Under the pieces are notes generated by a model. That model made no database searches and had not been told where the DNA came from. It worked only from the letters and a program-made list of their open reading frames with translations. The translations under genes and the position numbers were made by a program. This document shows, one piece after another, positions 46,745-64,000 of a DNA stretch of 64,000 nt (the stretch's first letter is position 1; each line of letters opens with the position of its first letter). This stretch comes from Comamonadaceae bacterium (GTDB lineage: Bacteria > Pseudomonadota > Gammaproteobacteria > Burkholderiales > Burkholderiaceae_C), in contig JAABPX010000001.1 of assembly GCA_011391745.1 (NCBI GenBank), positions 2,275 to 66,274 of the forward strand. The letters run 5' to 3'.

Positions 46745-46753
46745 AATTTGGGG

Positions 46754-46789: not shown

Positions 46790-46807
46790 CATTAACTAGG
46801 AGTGCCC

Positions 46808-47218: not shown

Positions 47219-47706
47219 ACCGTTTGGGGGGTTTGAACGGTGTGAATCACCGCCTGCCCCAACTCACCAGCTGCGTCGCTGCTCTGGTGACGCAACCACC
47301 AGACGGCACCTTTGCGTATGGCGTGCTCGGTGGGGCCTTGTGTGAGCACATCACCCACCACCATGCCCAACGTGGGTTGGTGCCCCACCAACATCACCGG
47401 TGTTTTGGCGTGTGGCCAATGAGCACAAGCCAACAAGGCTTCTGGCATGGCCCCAGGGGCCAAGGCCGCCACCGTCTTGAAGGGCCGCTCCAACGCTTTG
47501 GCCGTGTCTTGGGCGCGACGTGCGGGACTGACCAAAATCAGGGTGTTGGACGGCAAGTGGCGATCCAACCAAGCGGCCATGCGCTTGGCTTGTCGCTCGC
47601 CTTTGTCGGTTAAGCGGCGCTTGAGGTCCAAGTCGTCGCCTTGCAGACCGCTCTCAGCATTGGGATGCGCTTCGGCGTGTGCATGCCGCCACAAAATCAA
47701 GTCCAT
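47215..47706 (-). CDS. sixA: SixA-like histidine phosphatase
   Basis: LILWRHA, LT.KG..QA, SPARRAQDTA, VGHQP. Confidence 0.9.
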   Translation of the reverse strand: MDLILWRHAHAEAHPNAESGLQGDDLDLKRRLTDKGERQAKRMAAWLDRHLPSNTLILVSPARRAQDTAKALERPFKTVAALAPGAMPEALLACAHWPHAKTPVMLVGHQPTLGMVVGDVLTQGPTEHAIRKGAVWWLRHQSSDAAGELGQAVIHTVQTPQTV

Positions 47707-47718
47707 GCGGGCACCCCA

Positions 47719-49817: not shown

Positions 49818-49851
49818 ATTATTGAACGGCCACGTGACGGTTGTGTGACAC
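49818..49851 (-). promoter_or_regulatory. Pho box promoter for ppk1-sixA embedded in the last codons of plcP
   Basis: GTGTCAC-acaa-CCGTCAC, then 10 nt, then AATAAT. Confidence 0.65.
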
Positions 49852-50679
49852 ATTGTCGGCGGTTTCAGCGCGATTTTTCACGGCTGGAACCCATTGCACG
49901 ATTTCCAAGCGCCCATCAAAGTGCTCGACCAAGGCGGTAAGGCTTTCCACCCAATCCCCGTCGTTGCAATACAAAATGCCATCGATTTCGCGCATTTCCG
50001 CACGGTGAATGTGACCACACACAACGCCTTGGTAGCCGTTCTTTCGGGCCTCTGCGGCCACCGCAACCTCAAAATCGTTGATGAAATTCATGGCTGTTTT
50101 GACCCGGTCTTTGAGGTATTGGGACAAGGACCAGTAAGGCAGCCCCAATCGCGAACGCCACGAGTTGAAGTGGCGATTGATGCGCAGGCTCAGCTCATAC
50201 AGGTTGTCGCCCAAATACGCCAACCATTTGGCGCATTGAATCACGCTGTCGAAATAGTCGCCGTGAATGACCCACAAACGTCGGCCATCGGCGGTGGTGT
50301 GCACGGCTTGGTTGCGCACCTCAACGCCGCCAAAATGCTGGCCGTCGAATTGGCGGGCAAACTCGTCGTGGTTGCCGGGCACAAACACCACGCGACAACC
50401 TTTGCGGGCCTTTTTAAGAATCTTTTGAATCACGTCGTTGTGCGCTTGTGGCCAGTGCCATTTTCTTCGCAACTGCCACCCATCGATGATGTCACCCACC
50501 AAGTACAGGTATTGGCTGGGGTGGCTTTTGAGAAAGGCCAACAGCTCTTTGGCTTGGCAACCGGCGGTGCCCAAATGCAAATCAGAAATAAACACCGCGC
50601 GGTATTTGGCTCGATCCGGACCAGACCCCGAAGTGTCGTTGTCCAAGCTGCCCATGAAGGCTTGGAAATCTGTGTACAT
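49819..50679 (-). CDS. plcP: PlcP-type Mn-dependent phospholipase C (metallophosphoesterase, often auto-annotated as LpxH-like)
   Basis: FISDLHLG, LYLVGDIIDGW, GNHD, HGD.FD, YWSLS, CGHIH, YCNDGDWVES; lipid-remodelling context. Confidence 0.82.
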   Translation of the reverse strand: MYTDFQAFMGSLDNDTSGSGPDRAKYRAVFISDLHLGTAGCQAKELLAFLKSHPSQYLYLVGDIIDGWQLRRKWHWPQAHNDVIQKILKKARKGCRVVFVPGNHDEFARQFDGQHFGGVEVRNQAVHTTADGRRLWVIHGDYFDSVIQCAKWLAYLGDNLYELSLRINRHFNSWRSRLGLPYWSLSQYLKDRVKTAMNFINDFEVAVAAEARKNGYQGVVCGHIHRAEMREIDGILYCNDGDWVESLTALVEHFDGRLEIVQWVPAVKNRAETADNVSHNRHVAVQ

Positions 50680-51506
50680 CAGGCCCCCAATAAAAATTTT
50701 CGGTAGCGTGCGGGCAAGTCGGCGGCGCGCATGAGCATGGGCAAGTCGGCGGCATTAAAGTCCGGGTCCCAGGCCGGTGGGCCCAACACCTTGGCACCCA
50801 AACGCAAATAACCCTTGATCAGCGCGGGCGGCTCCACATGCAAGGAACCATCGAGTTGCTCAATCGGCAAAGGCAAGCGTGGGCGTACATGCAAATCGAT
50901 GCTGGCCAAATGTTTGTCTTTGATTTGATGCCAAATGCTGGCCGCCGCATGGCCGCCGCCCACCATGCCCTGAGGCCCTTGGTGCTGCATGGGAATGGTG
51001 GCGCAACCGATCATGGTGTCCAAATCGTTGCGGTCCATGAAATCGAACAAAGCGCCCCACAAGGCCATGATCACGCCACCATGTCGATGTTCGGGGTGCA
51101 CACAACTGCGCCCAAGCTCAACCATGCGCTCACGCATGTGGCGCAGGCGGGTCAAGTCAAACTCGGTGTCGGTGTAGGTGCCACCCACTCGGCGGGCTTG
51201 CGCAGGGGTCAACACCCGGTAGGTGCCAACGACCTGCTGGGTGTTGGCATCGCGCACCAACAAGTGTTCACAAAAATCATCGAACAAATCAATGTCGTGC
51301 CCAGGAACTTTGCTCGACAGCTTGGCCCCCATTTCCAAGGCAAACACTTGGTAGCGCAGGCGTTGCGCTTCGCGAACTTCGTCTTGGTGTTGCGCCCAAG
51401 TTACCACGATGGACTTGGCACCCGGTGCATCGTCTTGCGGTGCATGGGGCAAAACGATTCGGGGCGCTGGCGACAGCAAGGTTGGGCTGATCGGTGGCTC
51501 TTTCAA
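50679..51506 (-). CDS. olsB: OlsB-like GNAT N-acyl amino acid synthase (ornithine-lipid type)
   Basis: EAQRLRYQVF, D.FDDFCEHLLVRD, VGTYRVL, EFDL, ELGRSCVHP, LIKGYLRLGA...PAWDPDF; AAGGAG SD with TTG start; TGATG overlap with plcP. Confidence 0.72.
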   Translation of the reverse strand: MKEPPISPTLLSPAPRIVLPHAPQDDAPGAKSIVVTWAQHQDEVREAQRLRYQVFALEMGAKLSSKVPGHDIDLFDDFCEHLLVRDANTQQVVGTYRVLTPAQARRVGGTYTDTEFDLTRLRHMRERMVELGRSCVHPEHRHGGVIMALWGALFDFMDRNDLDTMIGCATIPMQHQGPQGMVGGGHAAASIWHQIKDKHLASIDLHVRPRLPLPIEQLDGSLHVEPPALIKGYLRLGAKVLGPPAWDPDFNAADLPMLMRAADLPARYRKFLLGA

Positions 51507-51571
51507 TCGAGACTCCTTGGGGTATGACCCGGTCAGCCGGGTACGGATGTTTCTTTGAATCGACAAAACCG

Positions 51572-51627
51572 ATTGTGAAAAGAGAACATGTCGAACCGAT
51601 GTCAACCGCGTGAAGAATGGATGACCA
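51572..51627 (-). promoter_or_regulatory. Four-half-site Pho box promoter for olsB-plcP
   Basis: TGGTCAT, TCTTCAC, TTGACAT, TCGACAT at an 11 nt period, then 10 nt, then CACAAT. Confidence 0.75.
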
Positions 51628-51637
51628 AACGCTCGCC

Positions 51638-52852
51638 TCATCGCACCACCTCCACCTCGGCCTGCTTGCCGCTCAACAGCGACTGCCAATGGCTCTCCAC
51701 GCGCTGTGCAATCCAAGACCATGACCATTGCGCCGCTTGCTGCTGAGCGGCGCGTCGCAGGTCGTGCTGCGCATGGGCCGTGCACACGGCGTGCCCCAAG
51801 GTGTGAACAAACGCGTTCTCGTCGCCCACGGGCACCAAGTACCCATTGCTTTGGTGTGCAATCGCCAAGGCCGCAGCCGCGTAGTCAAAAGCCACCACCA
51901 CCAAGCCACTGGCCATGGCCTCCAAGGTGACATTGCCAAAGGTTTCGGTCAAGCTGGGAAAGGCGAAGACATCGGCGCTGGCGTAAACACGCGCCAAATC
52001 CTCACCACGCAAAGCGCCCGTAAAGATCGCATCGGGCATGCGGGCCATGAACGCGGCCTTCTCTGGCCCGTCACCCACCACCACCCATTTCGCTGTGGGG
52101 TGCGTTCGGGCCAGCGCCTCGCGGGCACGAACCAACAAGCGCAGGTTTTTCTCACTCGCCAAACGACCCACAGACACGATGACCACATCGTCCTGGGCAG
52201 CACCCCATTCGGCGCGGGTGCTCGCACAGCGCTTGCTCGCTGAAAAGTGGCCGATATCCACCCCGCGCCCCACCACAAGCAAACGCTCAAAGCCCCACCC
52301 AGCCAATTCGCTTTGCATGTCCGCAGTGGGGACCATGGTGAAGTCGCAGTGGTTGTGAAAGCGCCGCAAATAAGCCAGGATGGGTTTGCGCAACCAAGGC
52401 ATTTTGTAGTGCTCGGTGTAGGCGTGGAATTGGGTTCTGAAATCGGCACTCACGGGCAACTTCAATTTCTTGGCGGCCTTGAGCGCCGACCAACCCAGCG
52501 GCCCTTCGGTGGCGATGTGAACCACGTCGGGCCTGTGTTCAGACCACAAACGCAGCAATTCACCCTGTGACGGCAAGCCCATGCGCAGGTGCGGGTACTT
52601 GGGCACAGGCCAGCCGCGCATGAGCACTTGATTCAAACCCTGGGGCTTATCCCCATCCAGCTCCACCGATTGTCGTGGTCGTATCAACTGCACCCGATGC
52701 CCACGCTGCAACAGGCTGTTGACCAAACGTTGCAAGGTCATGGCCACGCCGTTGATTTCGGGCGGATAGGTCTCGGTCACCAAGGCGATGCGCAAGGGTG
52801 ATGGCCGGTCTTCGAGCGTGTCCACGCTGATGTGCTGGTGCGGTGCATTCAT
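51638..52852 (-). CDS. GT4 glycosyltransferase, Agt-like (diacylglycerol glucosyl/glucuronosyl transferase)
   Basis: [31 protein letters not shown]...[36 protein letters not shown]. Confidence 0.8.
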
Positions 52853-52858
52853 GCCCGC

Positions 52859-52892
52859 AATATGCCCACGCTTTATCTCAATCGTGTGACAA
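52859..52892 (-). promoter_or_regulatory. Pho box promoter of the GT4 gene (leaderless geometry)
   Basis: TTGTCAC-acga-TTGAGAT, then 10 nt, CATATT, 6 nt, ATG. Confidence 0.7.
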
Positions 52893-52919
52893 AACAACCA
52901 AAACACAACACTGGCGGTT

Positions 52920-52999: not shown

Positions 53000-54208
53000 A
53001 TGAAAATCGCCATCGCCGGTACCGGCTACGTGGGTTTGTCCAACGCCATTTTGTTGGCCCAACACCACGAGGTCGTTGCCTTAGACATCCTGCCCTCCAA
53101 AGTCGCCACGATCAACCGCCGCGAATCCCCCATTGAAGATGCTGACATTACGGATTATTTGCGCAACCAATCGCTCAACCTCACCGCCACCACCGACCCA
53201 GTGGCGGCGTTTACCGACGCGGACTACGTCATCATCGCCACCCCCACCGACTACGATCCCCAAACCCATTACTTCAACACCCGCAGCATCGAATCGGTGG
53301 TGGCCAGCGTACTGACCATCAACCCCCGCGCGGTGATGGTCATCAAGTCCACCGTGCCGGTGGGCTACACCGCCAAACTGCGAGCGTCGCTGCAAGCCCA
53401 GCAAAGCCACCCCGTCAACATCATCTTCAGCCCCGAGTTCTTGCGCGAAGGCCGTGCCTTGCACGACAACCTCTACCCCAGCCGGATCGTCGTCGGTGAA
53501 CGCTCCGAAGCAGCACAAGTGTTTGCCCATCTGTTGCAAGAAGGAGCTATCAAACAAGACATTCCCGTGCTGTTGACCGACAGCACCGAAGCCGAGGCCA
53601 TCAAGCTCTTTGCCAACACCTATTTGGCCTTGCGTGTGGCTTATTTCAACGAACTCGACACGTACGCGGCCATGCACGGCCTGGACACCCGGCAAATCAT
53701 TGATGGCGTGTGCCTGGACCCGCGCATCGGCGCGCATTACAACAACCCGAGCTTTGGCTACGGCGGCTACTGCCTGCCCAAAGACACCAAACAACTGCTG
53801 GCCAATTACCGCGATGTGCCACAAAACCTCATCAACGCCATCGTTGAGTCCAACACCACACGCAAAGATTTCATCGCCAGCGAAATCGTCACCCGAGCCG
53901 TCATGGCGAGCGAGGCCAAGCCATCCCGCCCTGTGGTCGGTATCTACCGCCTGATCATGAAAGCGGGTTCCGACAACTTTCGTGCGTCGAGCATTCAAGG
54001 TGTGATGAAACGCATCAAGGCCAAAGGCCTTGAGGTGGTCATTTACGAACCCAATTTGGCTGAGGCCGAATTTTTTCACTCTCGCGTGGTGCGCGACCTT
54101 GAGACATTCAAGCGCATCAGCGATGTGATCGTGGCCAACCGCCGATCAGAGGCTTTGGCCGATGTGCACCAGAAGGTCTACACCCGAGACCTGTTTGGGG
54201 CCGACTGA
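53000..54208 (+). CDS. ugd: UDP-glucose 6-dehydrogenase
   Basis: [48 protein letters not shown]. Confidence 0.97.
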
Positions 54209-54214
54209 ATGCGC

Positions 54215-54254
54215 TTGTCACAAAAATAACGCTTCAATTTCACGCGAATGACAC
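54215..54254 (+). promoter_or_regulatory. Pho-box-like array upstream of the DUF962-like gene
   Basis: TTGTCAC (54215), ATAACGC (54226), ATTTCAC (54237), ATGACAC (54248) in 11 nt phase. Confidence 0.6.
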
Positions 54255-54303
54255 GCGATTGCATGACCATGTATTTTTTTTCAACCAAAGAAAGGGCTAC
54301 CCT

Positions 54304-54903
54304 GTGAGTACGTTTTGGCAACAATTGAATGAGCAGCGTTGGGACGACCACCGCTATTACCACCACAGCACCATCAACCAAAGCTTGCACCTGATCAGCG
54401 CGATCAGCTTTGTGGTCGCTTATGTCTTGGTCTGGACCGATCCCGCCATCGCCGCCTTGTTGGCTTGGCTGGTCTCGATGGTGAGTCGCCAATCCGGCCA
54501 TTTCTTTTTTGAGCCCAAGGGTTACGACGAAGTCAACCAAGCCACGCACGAGTACAAAGAAGAAATCAAGGTGGGCTACAACCTGCACCGCAAGGTGGTG
54601 TTGATGGCGATCTGGGCTTTGATCCCGGCTTGGCTGTGGGTCAACCCATCGGTCATGGGCTTGATCGAACCGTCCACCGACCTGATGGGTTTTGCGCGCG
54701 ACGTGGGCTGGGCTTGGTTTGCTTTGGGCGTGGGTGGTTTGGTGTTCCGAGTGTTGCAACTTGCGGTCCAACAAAACCTCAACACCGGTTTGGTCTGGGC
54801 CACCAAAATCCTGACCGACCCCTTCCACGACATCGCTTTGTATTACCGCTCACCCCTGCTGGTGTTGCGGGGCCAGTGGTTGGCGCCCGCCCGCGCACAC
54901 TGA
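54304..54903 (+). CDS. Uncharacterised membrane protein, DUF962/Mpo1-like His pattern
   Basis: HRYYHHSTINQSLH...RQSGHFFFEPK resembles the Mpo1 Y..H..P.N..LH and Q..GH..FE motifs; 4-5 hydrophobic segments; GTG start after AAAGGG. Confidence 0.65.
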   Translation: MSTFWQQLNEQRWDDHRYYHHSTINQSLHLISAISFVVAYVLVWTDPAIAALLAWLVSMVSRQSGHFFFEPKGYDEVNQATHEYKEEIKVGYNLHRKVVLMAIWALIPAWLWVNPSVMGLIEPSTDLMGFARDVGWAWFALGVGGLVFRVLQLAVQQNLNTGLVWATKILTDPFHDIALYYRSPLLVLRGQWLAPARAH

Positions 54904-54907: not shown

Positions 54908-56572
54908 TTAAGGCCGCCACCAGCCCAAGAGCTTGGGCCATTTGGCGGCCAACATCTCGCGCACCACCCGACGCCGCAAGGTTTTCAGGGTGGTGCCGCT
55001 GGGCAGATCCCACCAACCATCGGCCTGCATGGCCTGGGCCGCAGCCACCATGCGATCGCGCACCTGGCGCACATCGTCGTCGCTGGTGTCCAAGCTGAAC
55101 ATCATGCGACCGGATCCGACCCAACTCATGTAGAGCCCTTGCTGCCGGCAATAGAACTGGTACATCCAGTGGTAACGACCGGGCTGTGTGTAAGTGACGG
55201 TCCAGATGCTGGATAAATTTTGGATGCGCACTGGCACACCCGCGGCCTCAAAAGCTTGGTTGAAGGCCGTTCGCTCGCGGTTCCAACGCCCATCCACCCC
55301 GTCGTACAAAGCGTGTGCTTCGGGCGTGTCCAAGTAATGCAAGAACGCGTTCATGGCCCCCATCACATAGGGGTGGGCGTTGAAGGTGCCCCGGGCAAAA
55401 CACAGGTTGCCCGGTTGCTCGGGTTTGAAGCGGCGCATCCAAGCCGAGCGGCCACACACCACACCCACGGGATAACCGCCGGCCAAGGTTTTGCCGTAAC
55501 AGACCAAATCGGCCTGCACACCGAAATAGGCTTGTGCGCCCTCGCGATGGATGCGAAAGCCCACAAAAATTTCGTCCATGATGAGCGCAATGCCGCGCTC
55601 GGTGCAGACCGAGCGCAGTTTCCTCAACCATTGACCATAGGCCTCGCGGTCAAAGCCCGCGCTGCGGCTGCCGTCGACCAAGGTCGAGTCGCCGGGTGCG
55701 CCTTTGTTGGGGTGCAGTCCTTGCAGCGGGTTGACGATCACGCAGGCGATGTCGTGGCGGCTGCGCAGCACATTCAAGGTGGCCTCGTGCATGTCGCGCA
55801 AGGTATAGGTTTCGTGCACGGATGCGGGGTTGCCCGGGCCCGGCTGCACGTCGTCCCACCAGCCGTTGTAAGCCCCGGCGAATCGCACCACGTGTTGTTT
55901 GCCCGTGTGGTACCGCGCCAGGCGGACCGCTTGCATCACCGCCTCGGTGCCCGACATGTGGAAGGACACCTCGTCCATGCCCGAAATTCGCTTGAGGCGT
56001 TCCACGTTGTCAAGCACACAGGGGTGGTAAGCGCCCAATATGGGGCCCAGTGCTTCGCCCATGTCCAAACCTTTTCGCATCCAGGCTTTGTAAGCCTCAA
56101 GGCCCATGACGTTGACGCCATAAGAACCCGTGATGTCGAGGTAGGCGTGGCCATCCATATCGCGCAAATGCATGCCTTGGGATGAAGCCATGAAAGCGCC
56201 CATCGGCAGGTGTTCGCGCACCCATTCGCTGAATGGGTAAGGCACGCGGTAGCGGCTGGTGAGCTGCAAATCGGACAGGCTCTCACGCAAGCGCCGCGTG
56301 TGCTCCAAGGTGATGGGACTGCTGCGGCGAAAGTAAGCGCTCAAGCGCTCAAAACCGGCACGGCGCTGAGCAGCCAATTCGGGCGAAGCCCCATCGGCGT
56401 TAAAAAATGCGTCACCCACCAAGCTGTGGTGCGGCACCCAGCGCGCAGCCCGGCGCGACATGCGCACATGGCCGCCCAGCGAGGGGTGTTTGGCGCGAGA
56501 CAACAACCAACGGCGGTACACCGCAGGCAACAACAAGGCATCGGTCCAAGCGGGCAAATTCAAAGGGATCAT
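54908..56572 (-). CDS. Class III PLP aminotransferase (GSAM-like / PKS-NRPS AMT-domain-like) with N-terminal extension; function unknown
   Basis: G..L.DMDG..YLD...SYG, SGTEAVM.A.RLAR, F.GAYNG, IMDEIFVGFR, ADLVCYGKTLAGGYPVG (PLP Lys), GTFNAHP; 554 aa. Confidence 0.85.
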   Translation of the reverse strand: MIPLNLPAWTDALLLPAVYRRWLLSRAKHPSLGGHVRMSRRAARWVPHHSLVGDAFFNADGASPELAAQRRAGFERLSAYFRRSSPITLEHTRRLRESLSDLQLTSRYRVPYPFSEWVREHLPMGAFMASSQGMHLRDMDGHAYLDITGSYGVNVMGLEAYKAWMRKGLDMGEALGPILGAYHPCVLDNVERLKRISGMDEVSFHMSGTEAVMQAVRLARYHTGKQHVVRFAGAYNGWWDDVQPGPGNPASVHETYTLRDMHEATLNVLRSRHDIACVIVNPLQGLHPNKGAPGDSTLVDGSRSAGFDREAYGQWLRKLRSVCTERGIALIMDEIFVGFRIHREGAQAYFGVQADLVCYGKTLAGGYPVGVVCGRSAWMRRFKPEQPGNLCFARGTFNAHPYVMGAMNAFLHYLDTPEAHALYDGVDGRWNRERTAFNQAFEAAGVPVRIQNLSSIWTVTYTQPGRYHWMYQFYCRQQGLYMSWVGSGRMMFSLDTSDDDVRQVRDRMVAAAQAMQADGWWDLPSGTTLKTLRRRVVREMLAAKWPKLLGWWRP

Positions 56573-56614
56573 GTGTCATCAATCGTTCATGTGGCAATGA
56601 CAAACTTGTAACCG
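56573..56614. promoter_or_regulatory. Bidirectional Pho-box region between the aminotransferase and the psd-like gene
   Basis: Plus strand: GTGTCAT-caat-CGTTCAT, then 10 nt, then CAAACT. Minus strand: CGGTTAC-aagt-TTGTCAT, then about 9 nt, then AACGAT. The intergenic gap is only 59 nt. Confidence 0.65.
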
Positions 56615-56631
56615 TTGAATTTGACAAGACC

Positions 56632-57498
56632 ATGAAAAAACCCACTTTGCTCCAACGCTCAGGCCTCGCCGAGGACCTGAACTTTTTGTTCACCAACCGC
56701 ATTCCCCGCATTGCGCTCACACACGCCATGGGCTGGTACAGCCAAATCAAAAGTCCCTGGCTGACGCGCCTGAGCATTGCGGTTTGGGGTTGGTTCACGC
56801 CTTTGGATTTTTCTGAGGCCAAAGAACAACACTTTGACTCGTTGCACGCGTGCTTCACGCGCGAACTCAAGCCCGGCGCACGCCCTTACAGCCCCGACCC
56901 CAAGCTGATTTCTTCACCCAGCGACGGCATCGTGGGTGCCATGGGCCAGGTCCAAGATGGCGAAGTGTTCCAAACCAAAGGCTTCCCCTACACCTTGAAC
57001 GATTTGCTGGGCTCAGTGGCGCTGGCCGAGCAATACCGCCACGGTCACTACCTGACCTTGCGCCTGACCTCGGCCATGTACCACCGCTTCCACGCACCGG
57101 CACGCGTGCGTTTGGAACGGGTGAATTACATCTCGGGCGACACCTGGAACGTCAACCCCATTGCCCTACAACGCGTTGAGCGCTTGTTTTGTAAAAACGA
57201 GCGTGCCGTGCTGGATTTGGCCCTGCTCGACCACGGCGATCAGCGCATGCTCTTGGTGCCCGTGGCCGCGGTCTTGGTCGCCAGCATCCGCTTGCACGCC
57301 TTGGACACGAAATTGCACCTGCGCTACCGCGGCCCCAACGACATCCCTTGTCGGCATGAAGCGGCAGCGGGTGATGAATTGGGCTGGTTTGAGCACGGCT
57401 CGACCATCATCGTGCTGCTGCCCGAACACATCACGTGGGCCGAAGGCATTCAAACCGGTGTGCCCATCAAAGCCGGTACGCCCTTGGCAAACCTATGA
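56632..57498 (+). CDS. psd: Phosphatidylserine-decarboxylase-like pyruvoyl proenzyme (divergent subfamily)
   Basis: FTRELKPGARP, SPSDG, QTKG..Y, YHRFHAP, NVNP, LF.KNER, GWFEHGST cleavage site. Confidence 0.8.
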   Translation: MKKPTLLQRSGLAEDLNFLFTNRIPRIALTHAMGWYSQIKSPWLTRLSIAVWGWFTPLDFSEAKEQHFDSLHACFTRELKPGARPYSPDPKLISSPSDGIVGAMGQVQDGEVFQTKGFPYTLNDLLGSVALAEQYRHGHYLTLRLTSAMYHRFHAPARVRLERVNYISGDTWNVNPIALQRVERLFCKNERAVLDLALLDHGDQRMLLVPVAAVLVASIRLHALDTKLHLRYRGPNDIPCRHEAAAGDELGWFEHGSTIIVLLPEHITWAEGIQTGVPIKAGTPLANL

Positions 57499-57518: not shown

Positions 57519-58364
57519 TCACATCTTCAAAAAAGCGATGCCCACCAAGACCAGCCCCGTGGAAAAAGCGGCTGGCAACAAGCGCCCTTCTTTGAACCAC
57601 AGAATCGAAATCAGCATGGCAAACACCACAGAGGTTTCACGCAGCGCCGAGACCAAGGCCATCGGTGAGACCGTCATCGCCCACAAAACCATCGAATAGC
57701 CGGCGATCGAAATGACAGAACCCAACACAATCAAGCCCGCGTTGGTCTTGGAAAACGTCCACAGCGCCCGTGTTTGTTGCCGGTAAGCCAAGGCGTACAC
57801 CAGCATGGGCTCGAACACCGCCGACAGCAGCACATACGACAAGGCACTGCCCGAGACACGCGCCCCTGCCCCATCAACCACCGTGTACAACGCAATCACC
57901 CCCGCGTTGAGCAAAGCGAATTTGATCTGCCCCCAGCGCAAAGACCGCGCGATGTGGCGTTGGTAGGTGGACATCAAAAACAATATCCCCAAGGTCAGAA
58001 ACAACAAGCCCAACGACGAGGAACGGTCGAAGGACTCGCCCAAAAATGCCAAGGCAATCACCGTCACGAACACTGGGGCCATGCCCCGCATGACGATGTA
58101 AGCGGGGCCAAACGCGCTGTGGGCGTACACCTTGGTCAACACGAAGATGTACAGGCCGTGTAACAACACCGAGGCCAACAAATACGGGTGGCTCAGCTCA
58201 TGGGGCAAACCCACCCACCACAGCATGGGCACGGCAAGTACGGCGCTGCACAAATGCAATGCCATGGTGAAGAGGCCTTTGTCGGTGGCGCGGCTGATGA
58301 GGGAATTCCAAAGCGCGTGCATCAACGCGGCCAACAACACCGTCAGTAAAACACCATTCGTCAC
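57519..58364 (-). CDS. EamA/DMT family transporter
   Basis: AALMHALWN, AY..MRG..P, YTVVDG, VSALRETSVVFA; about 10 TM segments; GTGA overlap with the Nudix gene. Confidence 0.9.
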   Translation of the reverse strand: MTNGVLLTVLLAALMHALWNSLISRATDKGLFTMALHLCSAVLAVPMLWWVGLPHELSHPYLLASVLLHGLYIFVLTKVYAHSAFGPAYIVMRGMAPVFVTVIALAFLGESFDRSSSLGLLFLTLGILFLMSTYQRHIARSLRWGQIKFALLNAGVIALYTVVDGAGARVSGSALSYVLLSAVFEPMLVYALAYRQQTRALWTFSKTNAGLIVLGSVISIAGYSMVLWAMTVSPMALVSALRETSVVFAMLISILWFKEGRLLPAAFSTGLVLVGIAFLKM

Positions 58365-59170
58365 GCTTTCAGCACACGCAAAAACACACCCGTGGCCGCC
58401 AAGGTGAAGCGATCGGCTTCTAACGCATGGGTCAGCGCTTCCCTTTCAAATCGGTAAAACGCCGCCACCTCACCATCTTGGTTCAACGGCTCAACACCTG
58501 CCTCAAGCTCAGCCGAATAACAATGGATGGTTTCCACCGTCTGACCCCACCCCCGAGCGTCACCGCTGGGTTTGTTGAGTTCAATCGTGCCAAACGCGGT
58601 GAGGTTGACGAGTTGGCGCAGGCCCAAACCCGCCTCTTCCCATGCCTCTCGAGCCAAGGTCGCCGATGGATGTTCGTTCCAAGCCACCGTCCCGCCCACC
58701 AAGGTGTCCAAACGACCGGGGTCTTCCGCTTTGTTGGCCGCACGTTCCTGAACCCAGCACGCATCGCCTTGCCAACCGAGCACATGCACGCTGTGCGTGT
58801 GAACACCCAAGTACCGCGCCAAGTCGCGCGGTACCGCGCCGTGAAGCCGACCTTGGTCGTCCCACAAGGGCAAGCGCTCGGCCTCGGGCAGCACCCCCTG
58901 ACCAGGGTCGAACAGGTGCTGACGCAACGCGGCAAAGGTCGTGGTGGGGTCTTCGGGCAAATGCAACACATCGCCCCAATCGCTCGGCATCCATCGCCAC
59001 CCCGGTTGAAACCCCTCGCGACTCAGATGTTCAAGCATTGCGTGCGCAACCGAACCCACCACAAGGCCCCCAAGCCACAAAGGCGTTCTGGTGTCGGTTG
59101 GCGCTGGCTGGGCACGCTGCGCCCAGCGCTGCTCAAACGCAGGATCGAACGTCGGCCAGGGGGTTCGCAT
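58361..59170 (-). CDS. Nudix hydrolase (long N-terminal domain, DUF4743-like)
   Basis: Complete Nudix box G-TVAWN-E-HPSATLA-REAWEEAGL; K..DPG.LD.LVGG; P.NQDGEV. Confidence 0.85.
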   Translation of the reverse strand: MRTPWPTFDPAFEQRWAQRAQPAPTDTRTPLWLGGLVVGSVAHAMLEHLSREGFQPGWRWMPSDWGDVLHLPEDPTTTFAALRQHLFDPGQGVLPEAERLPLWDDQGRLHGAVPRDLARYLGVHTHSVHVLGWQGDACWVQERAANKAEDPGRLDTLVGGTVAWNEHPSATLAREAWEEAGLGLRQLVNLTAFGTIELNKPSGDARGWGQTVETIHCYSAELEAGVEPLNQDGEVAAFYRFEREALTHALEADRFTLAATGVFLRVLKA

Positions 59171-59179: not shown

Positions 59180-60307
59180 TCAAGACGACATGGCCAAATC
59201 GAGCAACTCGCGTGCGAAGGCAAACGAAGTGGACGCACCGGTCCCGCCCGTGACCACGCCCAGCGCCAACCTGGGACTGGGCTGGGCTTTGAACACCACA
59301 TCCTGGGCAGAGGCGTAGCTGCCGGTCCAGCGCTCGATCACGCTGGCCTTGGGCAAATTCAAGACGCGATGAAATTCGTCCATGATGAGGTTCTCGGTGG
59401 CGGCACTGGCAAATGGGGCCTCGGCATCGCCATACACATGGCTGTCGCCCACCACCAATGAACCATCGGCGGATTGAACCACGATGAGGTGAATGCCTTG
59501 TGCCAAGTGCGCCGCTTGTTCGCCCAGCAAGCGTGCTTTGAGTGGCGTGGCTTCGGGCAAATCGGCATAACCCTCGTAACGAATCAAACTCAGGTCGGAC
59601 ATGAAGGCGCTCGACAAATGGAGCGCTTGACCGGGCGAGACACGCATCATTTGCAGGGTGCATTGGCGAATACCCGCCTGCGCCAAACACAGGGGAAAGA
59701 GCGCATTCAAATCGTTGCCTGGGCACACCACGCCGTATTCGGCGCGCAAAGAGCCGCGGCTGGTGTTGATGTGCGGCAGGTGAATGCCGGTGACGGGCGT
59801 ATTCCAATAAAAATCAACACCCAAGCTGTGTTCCAGCCATTGGCTCAAACGGGGAATGGCGTCGCGCGATTCAACCCGGCATTCGTGCGGGCTGTGCAAC
59901 AGCGCCATGCCCGGCTGCAACCAAGGCCAATCGCGCTGGGCTTGTTTGGCGTCCACCCAACGGCAACCCTCGCCCATTTCGGTGGCCATAAAAGCCTCCA
60001 GCACCGCCACCGCTTCGGGTCGCTGGGCCAGCACATGCAAGCCCTCATGAACCACCCCAATCCCTGCCTGTGGGGCCACCTCGCGCCAAATGGCCGCCGT
60101 GTCCTGCGCTCGCCGCCAGTGCTCGCCACGGCGTTGGCCGGTGACGGTGATGAATCCAAAATTGCGAACCGATGCGCCGATGGCTTTGGCGTTGCGCTCC
60201 ACCACCGCCACTCGCAAACCACGGCGGCGCGCGGTCCAGGCCGTGGCCAAGCCAATGATGCCTGCGCCCACGACCACCAGGTCGTATCCCAATTTCATGT
60301 TGCTCAT
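59180..60307 (-). CDS. FAD-dependent oxidoreductase of phosphonate clusters (TIGR03364/HpnW, PbfC-like)
   Basis: VVGAGIIGLA, GASVRNFG, RVESRDAIP, DGSLVVGDSH.YG, ERWTG.Y, GTGASTSF; directly after phnX. Confidence 0.85.
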   Translation of the reverse strand: MSNMKLGYDLVVVGAGIIGLATAWTARRRGLRVAVVERNAKAIGASVRNFGFITVTGQRRGEHWRRAQDTAAIWREVAPQAGIGVVHEGLHVLAQRPEAVAVLEAFMATEMGEGCRWVDAKQAQRDWPWLQPGMALLHSPHECRVESRDAIPRLSQWLEHSLGVDFYWNTPVTGIHLPHINTSRGSLRAEYGVVCPGNDLNALFPLCLAQAGIRQCTLQMMRVSPGQALHLSSAFMSDLSLIRYEGYADLPEATPLKARLLGEQAAHLAQGIHLIVVQSADGSLVVGDSHVYGDAEAPFASAATENLIMDEFHRVLNLPKASVIERWTGSYASAQDVVFKAQPSPRLALGVVTGGTGASTSFAFARELLDLAMSS

Positions 60308-60312
60308 GGTTT

Positions 60313-61125
60313 TTATGGGCGTTGGCCCTTGGCCAAGCGCTGTTCAATCTGGGTCAATACGGCCGGCAAATCGGCCACGGTGTCGATCACAAAATGGGCG
60401 CCGGCTGCTTGAAACACGGGGGTCACGCGCTCTCGCACGGCTTGCCGATCCGCCGCAGTGGCTTGTTCAAACTCGGCCAATGTCCACCCTGCTGGACTGC
60501 CCGATAAGCTCACACCCACGGTCCACATGCCGGCGTTTAAGCCCTCGGCAATGCCCGGCACCGTGTCGTCGACCTTCACACAATGGGCCACCGAGCCGAT
60601 GCGCAATTCTTGCACGCAAGCCAACGCCATCCACGGACCGGGCCGGGCACCAGCGGCCAAATCGTCGGCGCACACGGTGCAGTCGGGCGCGTAGCCCCGC
60701 TGCGCCGCCAGCAGCATGAGGCGCAGCATGACTTGACGCGGGTAACCGGTGGTGGAGCCAATCTTGAGGCCCTGGCGGCGCAGGGCTTGCACCAGTGCCA
60801 AAGCGCCGGGGATCAAGTCGCTGTGGGCACCCACGCGCTCGACCTGCAGCGGAATGAAGGTGTCGTAAATGTGGCGCACATCGTCTTGCGACATGGGTTG
60901 GCCAAACTGCGCCCTCCAGCGCGGACCCACATCGGGGTCTTGGCCCAAGGCCTCGATGTGCTGCCACTTGCCCAAACCCATGGGCCTGCGGGCTTCCTCT
61001 AAGCTCAGTTCAAACCCATAGGCTTGTGCAAACGCGTCCACAAAAATTTGGGTGGGGGCAAAAGAACCAAAGTCGACCATGGTGCCAGCCCAGTCGAATA
61101 CGACGGCTTCCAGTTGGGGTTTCAT
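60313..61125 (-). CDS. phnX: Phosphonoacetaldehyde hydrolase
   Basis: FDWAGTMVDFGS, R.PMG..KW.HI (Schiff-base Lys), TTGY, RP.PWM, KVDDT..GI.EG.NAG.W. Confidence 0.96.
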   Translation of the reverse strand: MKPQLEAVVFDWAGTMVDFGSFAPTQIFVDAFAQAYGFELSLEEARRPMGLGKWQHIEALGQDPDVGPRWRAQFGQPMSQDDVRHIYDTFIPLQVERVGAHSDLIPGALALVQALRRQGLKIGSTTGYPRQVMLRLMLLAAQRGYAPDCTVCADDLAAGARPGPWMALACVQELRIGSVAHCVKVDDTVPGIAEGLNAGMWTVGVSLSGSPAGWTLAEFEQATAADRQAVRERVTPVFQAAGAHFVIDTVADLPAVLTQIEQRLAKGQRP

Positions 61126-61165
61126 GGGTGTGCTCGCATTAAAAGAAACAAAAGTCGTGTGGCGC

Positions 61166-62842
61166 TCAACGAACCCGCCACGCTTGGGTGGATCGGTTCA
61201 ACCGATGGGTCAACACGCTGTGAATCAGTTTGACCGCTGCTGAAGTCACCACAATGACCACGGCCATGGCCGCCGCCGCCGCGGTGAAACCCGCTTCGTC
61301 CATGTGAATGATGGACACCGAGGCCAACTTGGTGTTTGAGCCATACAAAAAGACCACGGCCGAGACAGTGGTCATGGCGTTAACAAACAGGTAGATGCTG
61401 ATGTCGAGTACCGCCGGGGTGCACACGGGCACAGTGACCCGACCGAACATACGGCCCACCGACACCTTGAGCGAGGCCGACACCGATTCAAATTCACCGT
61501 CCAACTGCTTGAGCGCCGTGGTGGCGGTGATGTGGCTCACGGTATAGAAGTGCGCCACCGAATTGACCACCAAAATGGCCATGGTGCCGTAGATAAAACC
61601 CAAGGGATGTCCGGGTGCGTTGAAAAAGAAAATGTACGACAAGCCCAACACCAAACCCGGCACCGCCATCGACAGCATGGCCATGAGCTGTGTGGTGTTG
61701 CGCACCCACGCAAAGCCACGCGTTTTCTCCAACAGATACGCGCCCACAAACACGATGACCGTACCCGCCACCGCCGTCCAAACGGCCATGCGCAGCGAGT
61801 TGAAATACGCCCTCCAGCCCTCGCTGTCAAAGTCGGCGAATTGGTAGTTGGCCCAAGTCAAATTCAGGTTATAAGGCCACCGCGTGACCAACGAAGCCCA
61901 CACCGCCATGCCGAGCATCACCAGCATGGCTGACGCCACCAGCGCACAAAACACCCACAGCGCCCAATCGCGCGGCGCATGGGGCTGCGGCACGAGTGGG
62001 ACCGAGCGTCCGCTGAGCAAAGCCACTTGGCGGTGTTGAACCCAACGGTCTGCAGCAAACGCCAGCACGGCGGGCAACAAAAGCACAAAGCCCACCACCG
62101 CACCCATCGAGAAGTTTTGCTGACCAATCACTTGCTTGAAGATGTCGGTGGCCAACACATTAAAGCGCCCGCCAATGACCTTGGCAATGCCAAAGTCGGT
62201 GATGGCCAAGGTGAACACCACAAACCCAGCGCTGATCAAGCCGTATTTGCTGCCCGGCAGCGTCACCGTCAAAAAAGTTCGCCAAGGGGAGGCACCCAAA
62301 ACACGGGCGGCCTCGTAATGCCGGGCATCGGCCATGCTCAACGCCACCACCAAAATCATCAGCGCATGGGGAAACACATAAAACACTTGCGAAATGACAA
62401 TGCCCAACGGCCCGTAAATGGAAGCGCCCATGAGCCAGTGGTTGAGCACCCCTTGATTACCAAACAAATAAATCAAAGAGATGGCGGGCAGCAACGAAGG
62501 TGCCAAGATGGGGATCAAGGCCAGGGCTTTGAACACGGTTTTGCCGCGCATGGCGCTGCGCGTCAAAGCGTAGGCGTAGGCATAGGCCAACGGCAAGGTG
62601 ATGACCGTAATCAGGCCAGAAACCCACACACTGTTCCACAGCGAATCGAACAGCGCTGGTGTAGAAAAATACACAGCGTAATTGGCCCAACCCATCCAAT
62701 CGCCATCGGCATTCTCAAAACTCTTGATCAACAACGTGGCCAACGGCAACACCAAGGTCAACAACAGCCAAGCCGCCAGCAAAACCACGCCCAGCCGCAT
62801 CCAAGCGTCGTCCCAGTCCCAGCGATGCCGAGTGCCCGACAT
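61166..62842 (-). CDS. Putative 2-aminoethylphosphonate ABC transporter permease (fused double permease)
   Basis: PSLLPAISLIYLFGNQG, YEAARVLGAS, TDFG..KVIGG.FNVLATD, MAVPGLVLGL, EFESVSASLK; TGATG overlap with the ATPase. Confidence 0.88.
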   Translation of the reverse strand: MSGTRHRWDWDDAWMRLGVVLLAAWLLLTLVLPLATLLIKSFENADGDWMGWANYAVYFSTPALFDSLWNSVWVSGLITVITLPLAYAYAYALTRSAMRGKTVFKALALIPILAPSLLPAISLIYLFGNQGVLNHWLMGASIYGPLGIVISQVFYVFPHALMILVVALSMADARHYEAARVLGASPWRTFLTVTLPGSKYGLISAGFVVFTLAITDFGIAKVIGGRFNVLATDIFKQVIGQQNFSMGAVVGFVLLLPAVLAFAADRWVQHRQVALLSGRSVPLVPQPHAPRDWALWVFCALVASAMLVMLGMAVWASLVTRWPYNLNLTWANYQFADFDSEGWRAYFNSLRMAVWTAVAGTVIVFVGAYLLEKTRGFAWVRNTTQLMAMLSMAVPGLVLGLSYIFFFNAPGHPLGFIYGTMAILVVNSVAHFYTVSHITATTALKQLDGEFESVSASLKVSVGRMFGRVTVPVCTPAVLDISIYLFVNAMTTVSAVVFLYGSNTKLASVSIIHMDEAGFTAAAAAMAVVIVVTSAAVKLIHSVLTHRLNRSTQAWRVR

Positions 62843-63945: not shown

Positions 63946-63961
63946 GGTGCTATTCCCATAC

Positions 63962-63995
63962 AAAAAAAGGGGCGGCGCGAAGCGCCGCCTCCCCA
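63962..63995 (-). terminator. Intrinsic terminator-like hairpin upstream of the phn ATPase (after a gene ending at the window edge)
   Basis: GGCGGCGC-TTC-GCGCCGCC-CC-TTTTTTT, immediately after a TGA at 63996-63998. Confidence 0.7.
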
Positions 63996-64000
63996 TCACT

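What the first reader, a model, noticed from the sequence alone, without database searches (positions are those of the whole stretch)
54908..56572. Stand-alone class III aminotransferase resembling PKS/NRPS AMT domains, with an atypical YNG motif
SEEN: 554 aa, with about 110 extra N-terminal residues before the G..L.D.DG..Y.D motif. The usual F.G.YHG reads FAGAYNG. The PLP Lys in CYGK is intact. The segment RSSPITLEHTRRLRESLSDLQLTSRYR and the FARGTFNAHP motif recall AMT domains of the MycA/McyE type more than HemL. KNOWN: such AMT domains aminate acyl chains. INFERENCE: it acts on a lipid-linked or acyl substrate, and the N-terminus (AWTDALLLPAVYRRWLL) may associate with the membrane.
Basis: partly seen in the sequence, partly recalled or inferred. 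Interest (0 to 1): 0.62.

Follow-up and report, generated by a model that had tools for sequence, protein, structure and literature searches.

The report
Membrane aminotransferase of phosphate-starvation lipid module
This gene encodes a real aminotransferase with a conserved extra N-terminal domain, and it is always inherited with two other uncharacterised membrane enzymes next to genes that replace phospholipids with sugar lipids when phosphate is scarce, so it probably puts an amino group on a still-undescribed phosphorus-free membrane lipid.

Summary
The ORF (54908-56572, minus strand, 554 aa) is real. It is a class III PLP enzyme. Its closest solved relative, by sequence, fold and tree, is the amine-transferase (AMT) domain of mycosubtilin synthase MycA, not HemL. 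The genome has its own canonical HemL. The ~120-residue N-terminal extension is a conserved helical subdomain behind a hydrophobic helix. The "YNG" motif is private to this lineage; every other orthologue examined reads YHG.

The context says more than the motifs do. In 151 genus-level genomes of the same family, this enzyme, a small Mpo1/DUF962-like His-rich membrane protein and a second phosphatidylserine-decarboxylase paralogue occur in exactly the same 37 genomes. They are always adjacent. All 37 genomes also carry the neighbouring Agt-like GT4 glycosyltransferase. Elsewhere the aminotransferase is fused to the Mpo1-like protein, or sits in one operon with a PHP::GT4 fusion. Pho-box-like repeats are conserved in both divergent promoters. 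The window also holds pst/phoU/phoB, ppk, a PlcP-like gene and ugd.

Best reading (about 50%): it is the transaminase step of a PhoB-controlled head-group tailoring pathway on glycosyl- or glucuronosyl-diacylglycerol. The product would be an amine-bearing, phosphorus-free lipid. The exact substrate is unknown, and I found no published characterisation.

The parts
54908..56572 (-). AMT-like class III aminotransferase (554 aa). N-terminal helix at residues 9-27, conserved helical N-extension to about residue 120, catalytic domain at 121-510, PLP Lys361.
56213..56572 (-). N-terminal extension (residues 1-120). It holds a weakly hydrophobic helix, then the invariant motif R21..L24-S25..K28-H29..S31-L32..G34-H35, then four helices predicted with high confidence. 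From about residue 45 onward it is also conserved in eukaryotic homologues.
55862..55870 (-). Y235-N236-G237. This is a lineage-private His-to-Asn change in the otherwise conserved YHG motif.
54304..54903 (+). Mpo1/DUF962-like His-rich membrane protein (199 aa from GTG 54304). It converges on the aminotransferase with a 4-nt gap. Invariant residues include D14, D15, H16, H20, N25, Q26, H29, R62, Q63, G65, H66, E70, P71, D172 and D176.
56632..57498 (+). Phosphatidylserine-decarboxylase paralogue (PSDp, 288 aa, HGST cleavage motif), transcribed divergently from the aminotransferase. The housekeeping Psd (LGST) lies elsewhere in the genome (contig C35).
56573..56637 (.). Divergent promoter region (59-bp intergenic) with Pho-box-like direct repeats. 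TTTCATGGTCTTGTCAA (56621-56637, minus strand) is oriented toward the aminotransferase, is followed by a TACAAG -10-like element and overlaps the PSDp start codon. TGTCATCAATCGTTCAT (56574-56590, plus strand) is oriented toward PSDp.
54209..54303 (+). Upstream region of the Mpo1-like gene, with half-sites spaced 11 nt apart: TTGTCAC, ATAACGC, ATTTCAC and ATGACAC (54215-54254).
51638..52852 (-). Agt-like GT4 glycosyltransferase (start codon uncertain). It is present in all 37 genomes that carry the trio and in 8 genomes without it.
53000..54208 (+). UDP-glucose 6-dehydrogenase (Ugd), the supplier of UDP-glucuronate. It lies between the GT4 and Mpo1-like genes, as it does in the Hydrogenophaga locus.
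49819..50679 (-). LpxH-type metallophosphoesterase, 50-74% identical to PlcP-position genes beside the same GT4 in relatives. It is the presumed phospholipase C that yields diacylglycerol.
   Evidence: PMC4796936, PMC13691135
50679..51785 (-). OlsB-like GNAT N-acyltransferase (Acetyltransf_5; start uncertain, and the ORF overlaps the GT4 ORF). It is not part of the conserved core.

Best explanation
The gene encodes the PLP-dependent transaminase of a conserved, PhoB-controlled membrane-lipid head-group module. The core of the module is this aminotransferase, the Mpo1-like Fe/His membrane protein next to it, and (in most lineages) a second, pyruvoyl-type phosphatidylserine-decarboxylase paralogue. 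The module works downstream of, or together with, the Agt-like GT4. That enzyme glycosylates the diacylglycerol released by the PlcP-like enzyme, and Ugd supplies UDP-glucuronate.

Proposed mechanism:
- At the cytoplasmic face of the inner membrane, the Mpo1-like oxygenase creates or exposes a carbonyl (keto or 2-oxo-acid function) on the lipid head group.
- The aminotransferase, held at the membrane by its N-terminal helix and conserved helical subdomain, converts that carbonyl to an amine. The amino donor would be a soluble amino acid (MycA AMT uses glutamine).
- Where the amine sits alpha to a carboxylate, the PSD paralogue removes CO2.
- The result is an amine-bearing, phosphorus-free lipid that can stand in for PE or PS when phosphate is scarce. 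In other lineages a PEMT-type methyltransferase would methylate it further.

Shown by computation: the fold and its closest relatives, the non-HemL status, the conserved N-extension, the co-inheritance, synteny and fusions, the nesting within GT4 carriers, and the conserved Pho-box-like sites. Inferred: transaminase rather than mutase or lyase chemistry, the order of the steps, the direction of the reaction, and the identity of the lipid.
For: - Class III fold with an intact PLP Lys and Asp; the closest relative is MycA AMT, by sequence, profile, fold and tree.
- Phyletic profile: the aminotransferase, the Mpo1-like protein and PSDp occur in exactly the same 37 of 151 genus-level genomes of the family. 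The Agt-like GT4 occurs in 45 of 151, including all 37.
- Synteny: the order PSDp | AT, Mpo1L | GT4 is kept in 11 of the 12 family loci scanned, and in three annotated genera: Malikia, Variovorax and Hydrogenophaga.
- Other families of the class: an operon AT-PHP::GT4-PSDp-Mpo1L with overlapping stop and start codons (L029, L030), and an AT::Mpo1L fusion protein beside plcP, btaAB and GT4 (L031). More AT::Mpo1L fusions appear among the representatives (P0155, P0162).
- Orthologue N-termini are TM-like.
- Pho-box-like repeats sit at the same position in the AT/PSDp intergenic region in 10 of 19 loci at <=1 mismatch, against a shuffle mean of 0.05 and maximum of 1. They occur in 7 of 14 Mpo1L/GT4 intergenic regions, against a shuffle mean of 0.08. 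The window's own pstS promoter shows the same repeat.
- The window is a Pho island: phoB-phoU-pstBACS, ppx, ppk1, a PlcP-like gene and PhnX with a phosphonate-type ABC transporter.
- PlcP-Agt is an experimentally established phosphate-stress route to MGDG and GADG. B. cenocepacia also makes a keto-GADG, so oxidised glycolipid head groups exist (PMC4796936, PMC13691135).
- PEMT-type methyltransferases sit beside the module in L033 and L035.
Against: - There is no biochemical or expression data for any member.
- The Mpo1-like assignment rests on sub-threshold Pfam hits, although 21 of 23 members hit only that family. Its model has no solved structural relative.
- A pyruvoyl PSD needs an alpha-amino acid, and I could not derive one from a pyranosidic glucuronide by simple oxidation and transamination. 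At least one step of the scheme is therefore missing or wrong.
- Some loci have the aminotransferase and Mpo1L without PSDp (L031, L033, L034), so the decarboxylation is not universal.
- The Pho-box statistics use related sequences and so overstate independence.
- The aminotransferase's nearest characterised relative acts on an acyl chain, not a head group.
- This copy carries H236N and sits on a longer branch than its relatives.
Confidence: 0.5

Rival explanations
1. Acyl-chain amination as in MycA. The enzyme transaminates a beta-ketoacyl thioester or a fatty aldehyde, giving a beta-amino or amino-alkyl lipid. The neighbouring OlsB-like GNAT might then N-acylate the product.
For: The closest characterised relative is the MycA AMT domain, with a shared GTFNxHP motif. 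A 2294-aa PKS/NRPS-sized protein is among the nearer representatives (P0185; 29% identity, E 1.5e-70). An OlsB-like GNAT lies 3 kb away in the window and in Malikia.
Against: No ACP, KS, FAAL or acyl-CoA ligase gene lies nearby in the window or the annotated relatives. The OlsB-like gene is absent from the Variovorax and Hydrogenophaga loci, while PSDp, Mpo1L and GT4 are always present. This reading does not explain the PSD paralogue or the nesting inside GT4 carriers.
Confidence: 0.1
2. Catabolic direction. The enzyme removes the amine from an amino-acid or amine head group (PS, PE, homoserine lipid). The Mpo1-like dioxygenase then oxidatively decarboxylates the resulting 2-oxo or 2-hydroxy acid. 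Head groups would be stripped or converted during phospholipid turnover rather than built.
For: Transaminations are reversible. Yeast Mpo1 shortens 2-hydroxy acids by one carbon (PMC10398889, citing Seki 2019). The AT::Mpo1L fusion suggests consecutive steps. The fusion locus L031 lies beside btaA/btaB, which make an alpha-amino-acid lipid intermediate. The module accompanies PlcP, a phospholipid-degrading enzyme.
Against: The window's genome has no btaA, btaB or PEMT. Stripping PS or PE would not free phosphate. The strict dependence on the GT4, a biosynthetic enzyme, and the PEMT neighbours in other lineages fit synthesis of a new lipid better.
Confidence: 0.12
3. Soluble sugar-nucleotide aminotransferase. 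The enzyme aminates an oxidised UDP-sugar (UDP-keto-glucuronate or a pentose, by ArnA/ArnB-like logic), and GT4 then transfers the sugar to diacylglycerol.
For: Ugd lies inside the cluster. SDR epimerase/dehydratase genes are divergent from the aminotransferase in L029 and L032. GT4 is always present.
Against: The hydrophobic or TM N-terminus and the fusions to a polytopic membrane protein point to a membrane-bound substrate. To my knowledge, sugar-nucleotide aminotransferases belong to the DegT/ArnB family, not to the HemL/AMT branch of class III. The PSD paralogue acts on lipids.
Confidence: 0.07
4. Aminomutase or lyase rather than transaminase. This would be a HemL-like intramolecular 1,2-amino shift, or a PLP-dependent elimination, on a lipid-bound amino-aldehyde or amino-alcohol.
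For: The family lies in the HemL superclade, and its top NCBIfam hits are GSAM models.
Against: It is sister to a true transaminase, MycA AMT, not to GSAM. No obvious amino-aldehyde substrate is available.
Confidence: 0.05
5. PbfA-like lyase or another enzyme of the adjacent phosphonate (PhnX) cluster.
For: PhnX, an FAD oxidoreductase and a phosphonate-type ABC transporter lie 3-7 kb away (window 59180-63999).
Against: PSDp, an EamA gene and a NUDIX gene separate the two. None of the relatives' loci show phosphonate genes next to the aminotransferase, whereas PSDp, Mpo1L and GT4 are always there. No PbfA-named chain appears among the PDB hits at <=1e-20. I made no direct sequence comparison with PbfA.
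Confidence: 0.02
6. A second HemL (glutamate-1-semialdehyde aminomutase) for tetrapyrrole synthesis, as automated annotation says.
For: JGI names for homologues read 'glutamate-1-semialdehyde 2,1-aminomutase', and the best NCBIfam hits are HemL models.
Against: The scores are far below the cut-offs: 171 against 398, and 158 against 527. A canonical HemL is present on contig C77. The tree separates the two. Only 37 of 151 related genera have the gene.
Confidence: 0.01

Closest known systems
AMT (amine transferase) domain of mycosubtilin synthase MycA (PDB 6kfm/6kfu); McyE-type AMT domains
   Same: It is the closest solved relative by sequence (1.4e-46; profile 217 bits), by fold (Foldseek E 7e-26, TMt 0.82) and by tree (sister, 99/98). 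The two share the PLP Lys, the MDEI Asp and the GTFNxHP motif, and part of the region N-terminal to the core also aligns.
   Different: This enzyme is stand-alone or fused to a membrane protein, not embedded in a PKS/NRPS. It has no ACP or KS partner. It carries a hydrophobic N-terminal helix and its own conserved motif (RAKHPSLxGH). Identity is only 28%. Its partners are lipid head-group enzymes.
HemL / glutamate-1-semialdehyde 2,1-aminomutase
   Same: Same superclade of class III enzymes, and the automated annotation of homologues.
   Different: It scores far below the family cut-offs. The genome has a separate canonical HemL. It has the ~120-aa N-extension and a patchy distribution, and the tree places it apart.
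PlcP-Agt phosphate-stress lipid remodelling (Sinorhizobium, SAR11, P. aeruginosa, B. cenocepacia)
   Same: A PlcP-like metallophosphoesterase, an Agt-like GT4 and Ugd flank the gene. Pho-box-like sites are present, and the likely trigger is the same (PMC4796936, PMC13691135).
   Different: The published systems contain no aminotransferase, Mpo1-like protein or PSD paralogue, and they make nitrogen-free glycolipids (MGDG, GADG, keto-GADG).
Psd / PmtA (PS to PE to PC) phospholipid head-group pathway
   Same: The module uses paralogues of the same enzyme families: PSD here, and PEMT in L033 and L035.
   Different: PSDp is a second copy beside the housekeeping Psd. It is only about 32% identical to that copy and has an HGST rather than LGST cleavage motif. 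It travels with an aminotransferase and a glycosyltransferase rather than with PssA.
Yeast Mpo1 (Fe2+-dependent 2-hydroxy fatty acid dioxygenase, PF06127)
   Same: The partner protein hits only this family (21 of 23 orthologues) and keeps invariant His, Asp and Glu residues in a small helical membrane protein.
   Different: All hits are below the gathering threshold. The substrate here is unknown, and no solved structure is available for comparison.

Membership tests
Class III aminotransferase fold (Pfam PF00202) | Domain match above the gathering score | tested here: met
   111 bits against a cut-off of 30.5, residues 121-510
Class III aminotransferase fold (Pfam PF00202) | PLP-binding Lys and pyridine-N Asp conserved | tested here: met
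   K361 (CYGK) and D333 (MDEI) are invariant in 36 orthologues and align with MycA AMT
Class III aminotransferase fold (Pfam PF00202) | (F/Y)HG motif after the large-domain strand | tested here: inconclusive
   The family reads YHG, but this copy reads YNG. The effect on catalysis was not tested.
HemL / GSAM (TIGR00713, NF000818) | Score above the curated cut-off | tested here: not met
   158 against 527, and 171 against 398
HemL / GSAM (TIGR00713, NF000818) | Groups with bona fide HemL in a tree, and is the genome's HemL | tested here: not met
   A canonical HemL is on contig C77. The tree puts the family with MycA AMT, apart from HemL.
PKS/NRPS AMT domain (MycA/McyE type) | Closest sequence and fold relationship, and the GTFNxHP motif | tested here: met
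PKS/NRPS AMT domain (MycA/McyE type) | Embedded in, or encoded beside, a megasynthase with carrier-protein and KS domains | tested here: not met
   The protein has a single domain plus the N-extension. No PP-binding, KS or AMP-binding genes lie in the window neighbourhood or in three annotated relatives.
PKS/NRPS AMT domain (MycA/McyE type) | Transaminates a carrier-bound beta-ketoacyl chain | not testable with these tools
   This needs an enzyme assay.
PbfA (1-hydroxy-2-aminoethylphosphonate ammonia-lyase) | Conserved linkage to phnW/phnX phosphonate catabolic genes | tested here: not met
   PhnX is nearby only in this window. Relatives keep PSDp, Mpo1L and GT4 but no phosphonate genes.
PbfA (1-hydroxy-2-aminoethylphosphonate ammonia-lyase) | Sequence clustering with characterised PbfA | not tested
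   No PbfA sequence was at hand. None is named among the PDB hits at <=1e-20.
Pho-regulon lipid-remodelling locus (PlcP-Agt type), as an accessory module | Physical linkage to an Agt-like GT4 and a PlcP-like phosphoesterase | tested here: met
   Window genes 49819-52852. GT4 is in all 37 carrier genomes. PlcP-like genes are adjacent in L001, L031, L033 and L034.
Pho-regulon lipid-remodelling locus (PlcP-Agt type), as an accessory module | PhoB-binding site in the promoter | tested here: met
   The conserved repeat TTTCAT-N5-TGTCAA is followed by a -10-like element at the same position across genera. It is enriched over shuffles, and the pstS promoter serves as an internal control. Binding itself was not tested.
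Pho-regulon lipid-remodelling locus (PlcP-Agt type), as an accessory module | Induction under phosphate limitation, and a lipid product | not testable with these tools

The most novel reading that the evidence does not exclude
Together with the Mpo1-like oxygenase, the PSD paralogue and (in other lineages) a PEMT-type methyltransferase, the aminotransferase could form a complete phosphorus-free parallel of the PS to PE to PC pathway. That pathway would be built by oxidative tailoring of a glycosyl- or glucuronosyl-diacylglycerol. The anomeric carbon would become a carboxy-acetal that mimics the phosphate, giving DGCC-type head groups.

Close homologues (40-46% identity, including the N-extension) occur in euglenids, chlorarachniophytes, thraustochytrids, a dictyochophyte and a choanoflagellate. 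The same chemistry could therefore underlie betaine or amino lipids of protists whose biosynthetic genes are unknown.
Probability: 0.07. Interest if true: 0.92.

Novelty: new variant of a known kind. Interest (0 to 1): 0.72.

Why it matters
Replacing phospholipids with phosphorus-free lipids is a major bacterial and algal response to phosphate scarcity, in soils, fresh water and oceans and, according to a 2026 B. cenocepacia study (PMC13691135), inside macrophages. The known bacterial routes give glycolipids, ornithine-type lipids and DGTS.

This enzyme belongs to a large, unstudied family. 1370 clusters at 50% identity match at E <= 1e-30, an upper bound that also counts HemL-type and other class III relatives. 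Members occur in several bacterial phyla and in protists, and every source annotates them as HemL or as a generic aminotransferase. In the family sampled here it is inherited only together with two other unstudied membrane enzymes and a lipid glycosyltransferase, behind Pho boxes.

If the proposed role holds, it marks an undescribed class of nitrogen-containing, phosphorus-free membrane lipid and the pathway that makes it. That is directly testable by knock-outs and lipidomics in culturable Comamonadaceae. It would also correct a widespread mis-annotation.

Tried and rejected
- HemL reading: rejected.
- PbfA / phosphonate reading: rejected on context.
- Homoserine-lipid (BtaA product) as the general substrate: rejected for this genome, because tblastn finds no btaA, btaB or PEMT in G000. 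btaAB does flank the fusion form in L031.
- YNG as a family signature: rejected.
- Fold search of the Mpo1-like model (pLDDT 84.6) against PDB: no match below E 0.9, so no mechanistic lead.
- Literature searches for the module returned nothing that describes it. The terms covered PlcP, aminolipid and aminotransferase; DUF962 and phosphate starvation; PSD, aminotransferase and GT; Mpo1 and lipid remodelling; and DGCC biosynthesis. The two primary Mpo1 papers are not held.
- Link to DGCC producers: not supported by the one data set read. Euglena gracilis, whose genus has homologues, shows GlcADG and DGTS/A but no DGCC.
- GT2-like N-terminal domain in the long eukaryotic forms: seen only as sub-threshold hits in two Euglena proteins, so left as a hint.
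- Window-wide count of Pho-box-like words: not above chance (42 found against 34.6 expected). Only their placement and cross-genus conservation carry weight.
- Simple chemical schemes from pyranosidic glucuronosyl-DAG to an alpha-amino acid that a PSD could decarboxylate: none works without an extra ring-cleaving or ring-contracting step. I therefore do not commit to a structure.
Full report
**Observation.** The ORF at 54908-56572 (minus strand) is intact, starts with ATG and encodes 554 aa. Pfam places a class III aminotransferase domain at residues 121-510, at 111 bits, so about 120 residues precede the catalytic core. FAGAYNG is at residues 231-237, CYGK holds K361, and FARGTFNAHP is there too.

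In an alignment of 36 orthologues, K361 and D333 are invariant. The Asn of "YNG", however, is found only in this protein and in a 94%-identical metagenome protein. The 34 others read YHG, and so does the distant fusion form in L031. This copy deviates from its relatives at 15 of 214 near-invariant columns and sits on a somewhat longer branch. The gene looks functional but slightly fast-evolving. YNG is a private substitution, not the mark of a new specificity.

**What kind of enzyme it is.** The best NCBIfam hits are HemL models, but far below their cut-offs: 171 against 398, and 158 against 527. The genome (2.18 Mb, 97.8% complete) carries a canonical HemL on another contig, plus five other class III enzymes.

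Four tests agree on the nearest relative:
- Against PDB sequences, the best match is the amine-transferase (AMT) domain of mycosubtilin synthase MycA, at 1.4e-46 against 6.9e-34 for the best GSAM.
- With a family profile, the gap widens to 217 against 156 bits.
- An AlphaFold2 model (pLDDT 80.9, pTM 0.84) finds 6kfm first: E 7e-26, 490 aligned columns against about 420 for GSAM.
- A maximum-likelihood tree places the family (100/100) as sister to MycA AMT (99/98), apart from HemL. It used ten family members, the MycA AMT segment printed and the genome's six other class III enzymes. Sampling is thin: no McyE, PbfA, beta-transaminase or PctV.

**The N-terminal extension.** It is conserved across the family. 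A hydrophobic stretch comes first, then an invariant motif (R21, L24, S25, K28, H29, S31, L32, G34, H35), then four confidently predicted helices up to residue ~120. In orthologues from other families of the class the first 20-25 residues form an obvious TM helix. In Comamonadaceae-type sequences the helix is Ala-rich and borderline. In this copy it is weak: the Kyte-Doolittle maximum is 1.07, against 0.8-2.1 in relatives.

**Context.** This is the decisive evidence. The window is a phosphate-stress island:
- phoB-phoU-pstBACS
- ppx
- a SixA-like gene and ppk1
- an LpxH-type metallophosphoesterase in the position of PlcP
- an OlsB-like GNAT
- a GT4 glycosyltransferase, and ugd
- then a 199-aa His-rich membrane protein, the aminotransferase, and a phosphatidylserine-decarboxylase gene
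- further on, EamA, NUDIX, an FAD oxidoreductase, PhnX and an ABC transporter

The PSD next to the aminotransferase is a paralogue. The genome has a second, better-scoring Psd with the canonical LGST site on contig C35. The small membrane protein hits only Pfam Mpo1-like (PF06127), below threshold, but 21 of 23 orthologues do the same. It keeps invariant Asp, His and Glu residues.

**Co-inheritance.** I sampled 151 genus-level genomes of the same GTDB family. The aminotransferase, the Mpo1-like protein and the PSD paralogue are present in exactly the same 37 genomes and absent from the other 114. The Agt-like GT4 is present in 45, including all 37. The trio therefore occurs only where the glycosyltransferase occurs, and not the reverse. 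The order PSDp | AT, Mpo1L | GT4 is kept in 11 of the 12 family loci I scanned, and in Malikia, Variovorax and Hydrogenophaga records with gene calls.

About 4% of genera across the class have the family. There the genes are arranged differently but stay together:
- An operon AT-PHP::GT4-PSDp-Mpo1L with overlapping stop and start codons (L029, L030).
- A single 738-aa AT::Mpo1L fusion protein beside plcP, btaA/btaB and a GT4 (L031).
- PEMT-type lipid methyltransferases beside the Mpo1-like gene (L033, L035).

Further AT::Mpo1L fusions appear among the 50%-identity representatives. Fusion, operon membership and identical phyletic profiles together make a functional unit very likely.

**Regulation.** The 59-bp region between the aminotransferase and PSDp contains TTTCATGGTCTTGTCAA. 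This repeat is oriented toward the aminotransferase and is followed after ~10 nt by TACAAG. A second repeat is oriented toward PSDp.

The same repeat sits at the same place, abutting the PSDp start codon, in most orthologous loci. Ten of 19 loci match TGTCA-N6-TGTCA with at most one mismatch, against a mean of 0.05 (maximum 1) in shuffles. The Mpo1L/GT4 intergenic regions show the same in 7 of 14 loci, against 0.08. The window's pstS promoter carries the repeat in triplicate, which serves as an internal control.

Two caveats apply. The sequences are related, so these are footprints and not independent trials. And the window-wide count of such words is not above chance.

**Mechanism.** I commit to the following, at about 50%. 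The enzyme is the transaminase of a PhoB-controlled head-group tailoring pathway at the cytoplasmic face of the inner membrane. The PlcP-like enzyme releases diacylglycerol. GT4, with Ugd supplying UDP-glucuronate, makes glycosyl- or glucuronosyl-diacylglycerol; this part is established in other bacteria (PMC4796936, PMC13691135). The Mpo1-like oxygenase creates a carbonyl or 2-oxo-acid function on the head group. The aminotransferase converts that to an amine. The PSD paralogue decarboxylates where an alpha-amino acid results. In some lineages a PEMT-type enzyme methylates the amine. B. cenocepacia makes a keto-glucuronosyl-DAG under phosphate limitation, which shows that oxidised glycolipid head groups exist.

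The chemistry, the order of steps and the substrate are all inferred. I could not write a simple route from a pyranosidic glucuronide to an alpha-amino acid that a pyruvoyl decarboxylase could accept, so a step is missing or the substrate is different.

**Rivals.**
- Acyl-chain amination as in MycA (10%). No carrier-protein or KS genes lie anywhere near.
- A catabolic direction, deaminating an amino-acid head group and then shortening it with the Mpo1-like enzyme (12%). This genome lacks btaA.
- Amination of a soluble UDP-keto-sugar before transfer (7%). The membrane anchoring and the fusions argue against it.
- An aminomutase or lyase (5%).
- PbfA (2%).
- HemL (1%).

**Comparison with what is known.** I found no paper that describes this module. 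Every source names the protein "glutamate-1-semialdehyde aminomutase" or a generic aminotransferase, and its Mpo1-like partner "hypothetical protein". The enzyme works like an AMT-type transaminase but fails the membership feature of being part of a megasynthase. It is a member of the class III fold, but not of HemL.

Earlier notes of this scan on other genomes reach similar readings. They are unverified AI notes. I found the fusion, the PHP::GT4 operon, the co-inheritance and the Pho footprints from the data here.

**Beyond bacteria.** The representative library holds 1370 clusters at E <= 1e-30, an upper bound that also counts HemL-type and other class III relatives. Homologues that are 40-46% identical from residue ~45 onward occur in:
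- Euglena mutabilis and E. gracilis (1189-1220 aa, with a long unknown N-terminal part)
- the chlorarachniophytes Bigelowiella and Partenskyella
- the thraustochytrids Hondaea and Thraustochytrium
- Rhizochromulina
- the choanoflagellate Didymoeca

This widens the question considerably, but I did not resolve what these organisms have in common.

**Verdict.** The gene is one component of a conserved, apparently Pho-regulated and uncharacterised lipid module. It is a new variant of a known kind of enzyme, sitting in what may be a new pathway. Interest 0.72.

Noticed in passing
L031:7872-10088 (+), with L031:4825-7594: A 738-aa aminotransferase::Mpo1-like fusion protein (46% identical to the window enzyme; it keeps YHG). 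It lies divergent from btaA (DUF3419), btaB and a PlcP-like gene, with a GT4 downstream and no PSD paralogue within 8 kb.
   Followed up: partly
L029:9665-12373 and L030:3831-6599; L035:11198-13921: Proteins of about 900 aa that fuse an N-terminal PHP-type phosphoesterase-like region (HCHDHHSD motif; no Pfam hit), a hydrophobic middle part and a C-terminal GT4. They sit in one operon between the aminotransferase and PSDp. They may be a functional equivalent of PlcP plus Agt.
   Followed up: partly
L033:6380-6922 and L035:6448-6984; L033:5041-6375: PEMT-family phospholipid N-methyltransferases (PF04191) lie next to the Mpo1-like gene in two other families. In L033 there are also a sulfotransferase, a second GT4 and a DUF2334 protein.
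   Followed up: partly
proteins P0130, P0281, P0288, P0292, P0295, P0299, P0308, P0311: Eukaryotic homologues, 38-46% identical and including the N-extension, occur in Euglena, chlorarachniophytes, thraustochytrids, a dictyochophyte and a choanoflagellate. The 1200-aa forms have about 700 unknown N-terminal residues, with sub-threshold GT2 hits in Euglena only.
   Followed up: partly
window 59180-63999 (-): Phosphonate-type cluster: an FAD-dependent oxidoreductase (DAO family), the phosphonoacetaldehyde hydrolase PhnX, and an ABC permease and ATPase. No PhnW or class III aminotransferase lies beside it on this contig.
   Followed up: no
window 57519-59170 (-): An EamA/DMT transporter gene and a NUDIX-domain gene overlap by 4 nt between PSDp and the phosphonate cluster. 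They are not conserved next to the module in relatives.
   Followed up: no
window 39897-49776: A large Pho island: phoB, phoU, pstB, pstA, pstC and pstS (minus strand), ppx (plus strand), a SixA-like histidine phosphatase and ppk1. The pstS promoter carries three in-phase TGTCAC-type repeats (45144-45171).
   Followed up: partly
window 50679-51785 vs 51638-52906: The longest ORFs of the OlsB-like GNAT and the GT4 overlap by about 150 nt. The Malikia orthologue of the GNAT is 280 aa, so the real GNAT start is probably downstream of the longest ORF's start.
   Followed up: no
G000 contig C65:2911-4062 (+): A third HemL-superclade enzyme (FNGCYHGT; PRK07046-like) of unknown role sits on a very long branch beside HemL in the tree.
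   Followed up: no
L029:6817-7755 and L032:6825-7745 (-): NAD-dependent epimerase/dehydratase (SDR) genes are divergent from the aminotransferase in two other families. They could be sugar-oxidising or sugar-decarboxylating partners.
   Followed up: no
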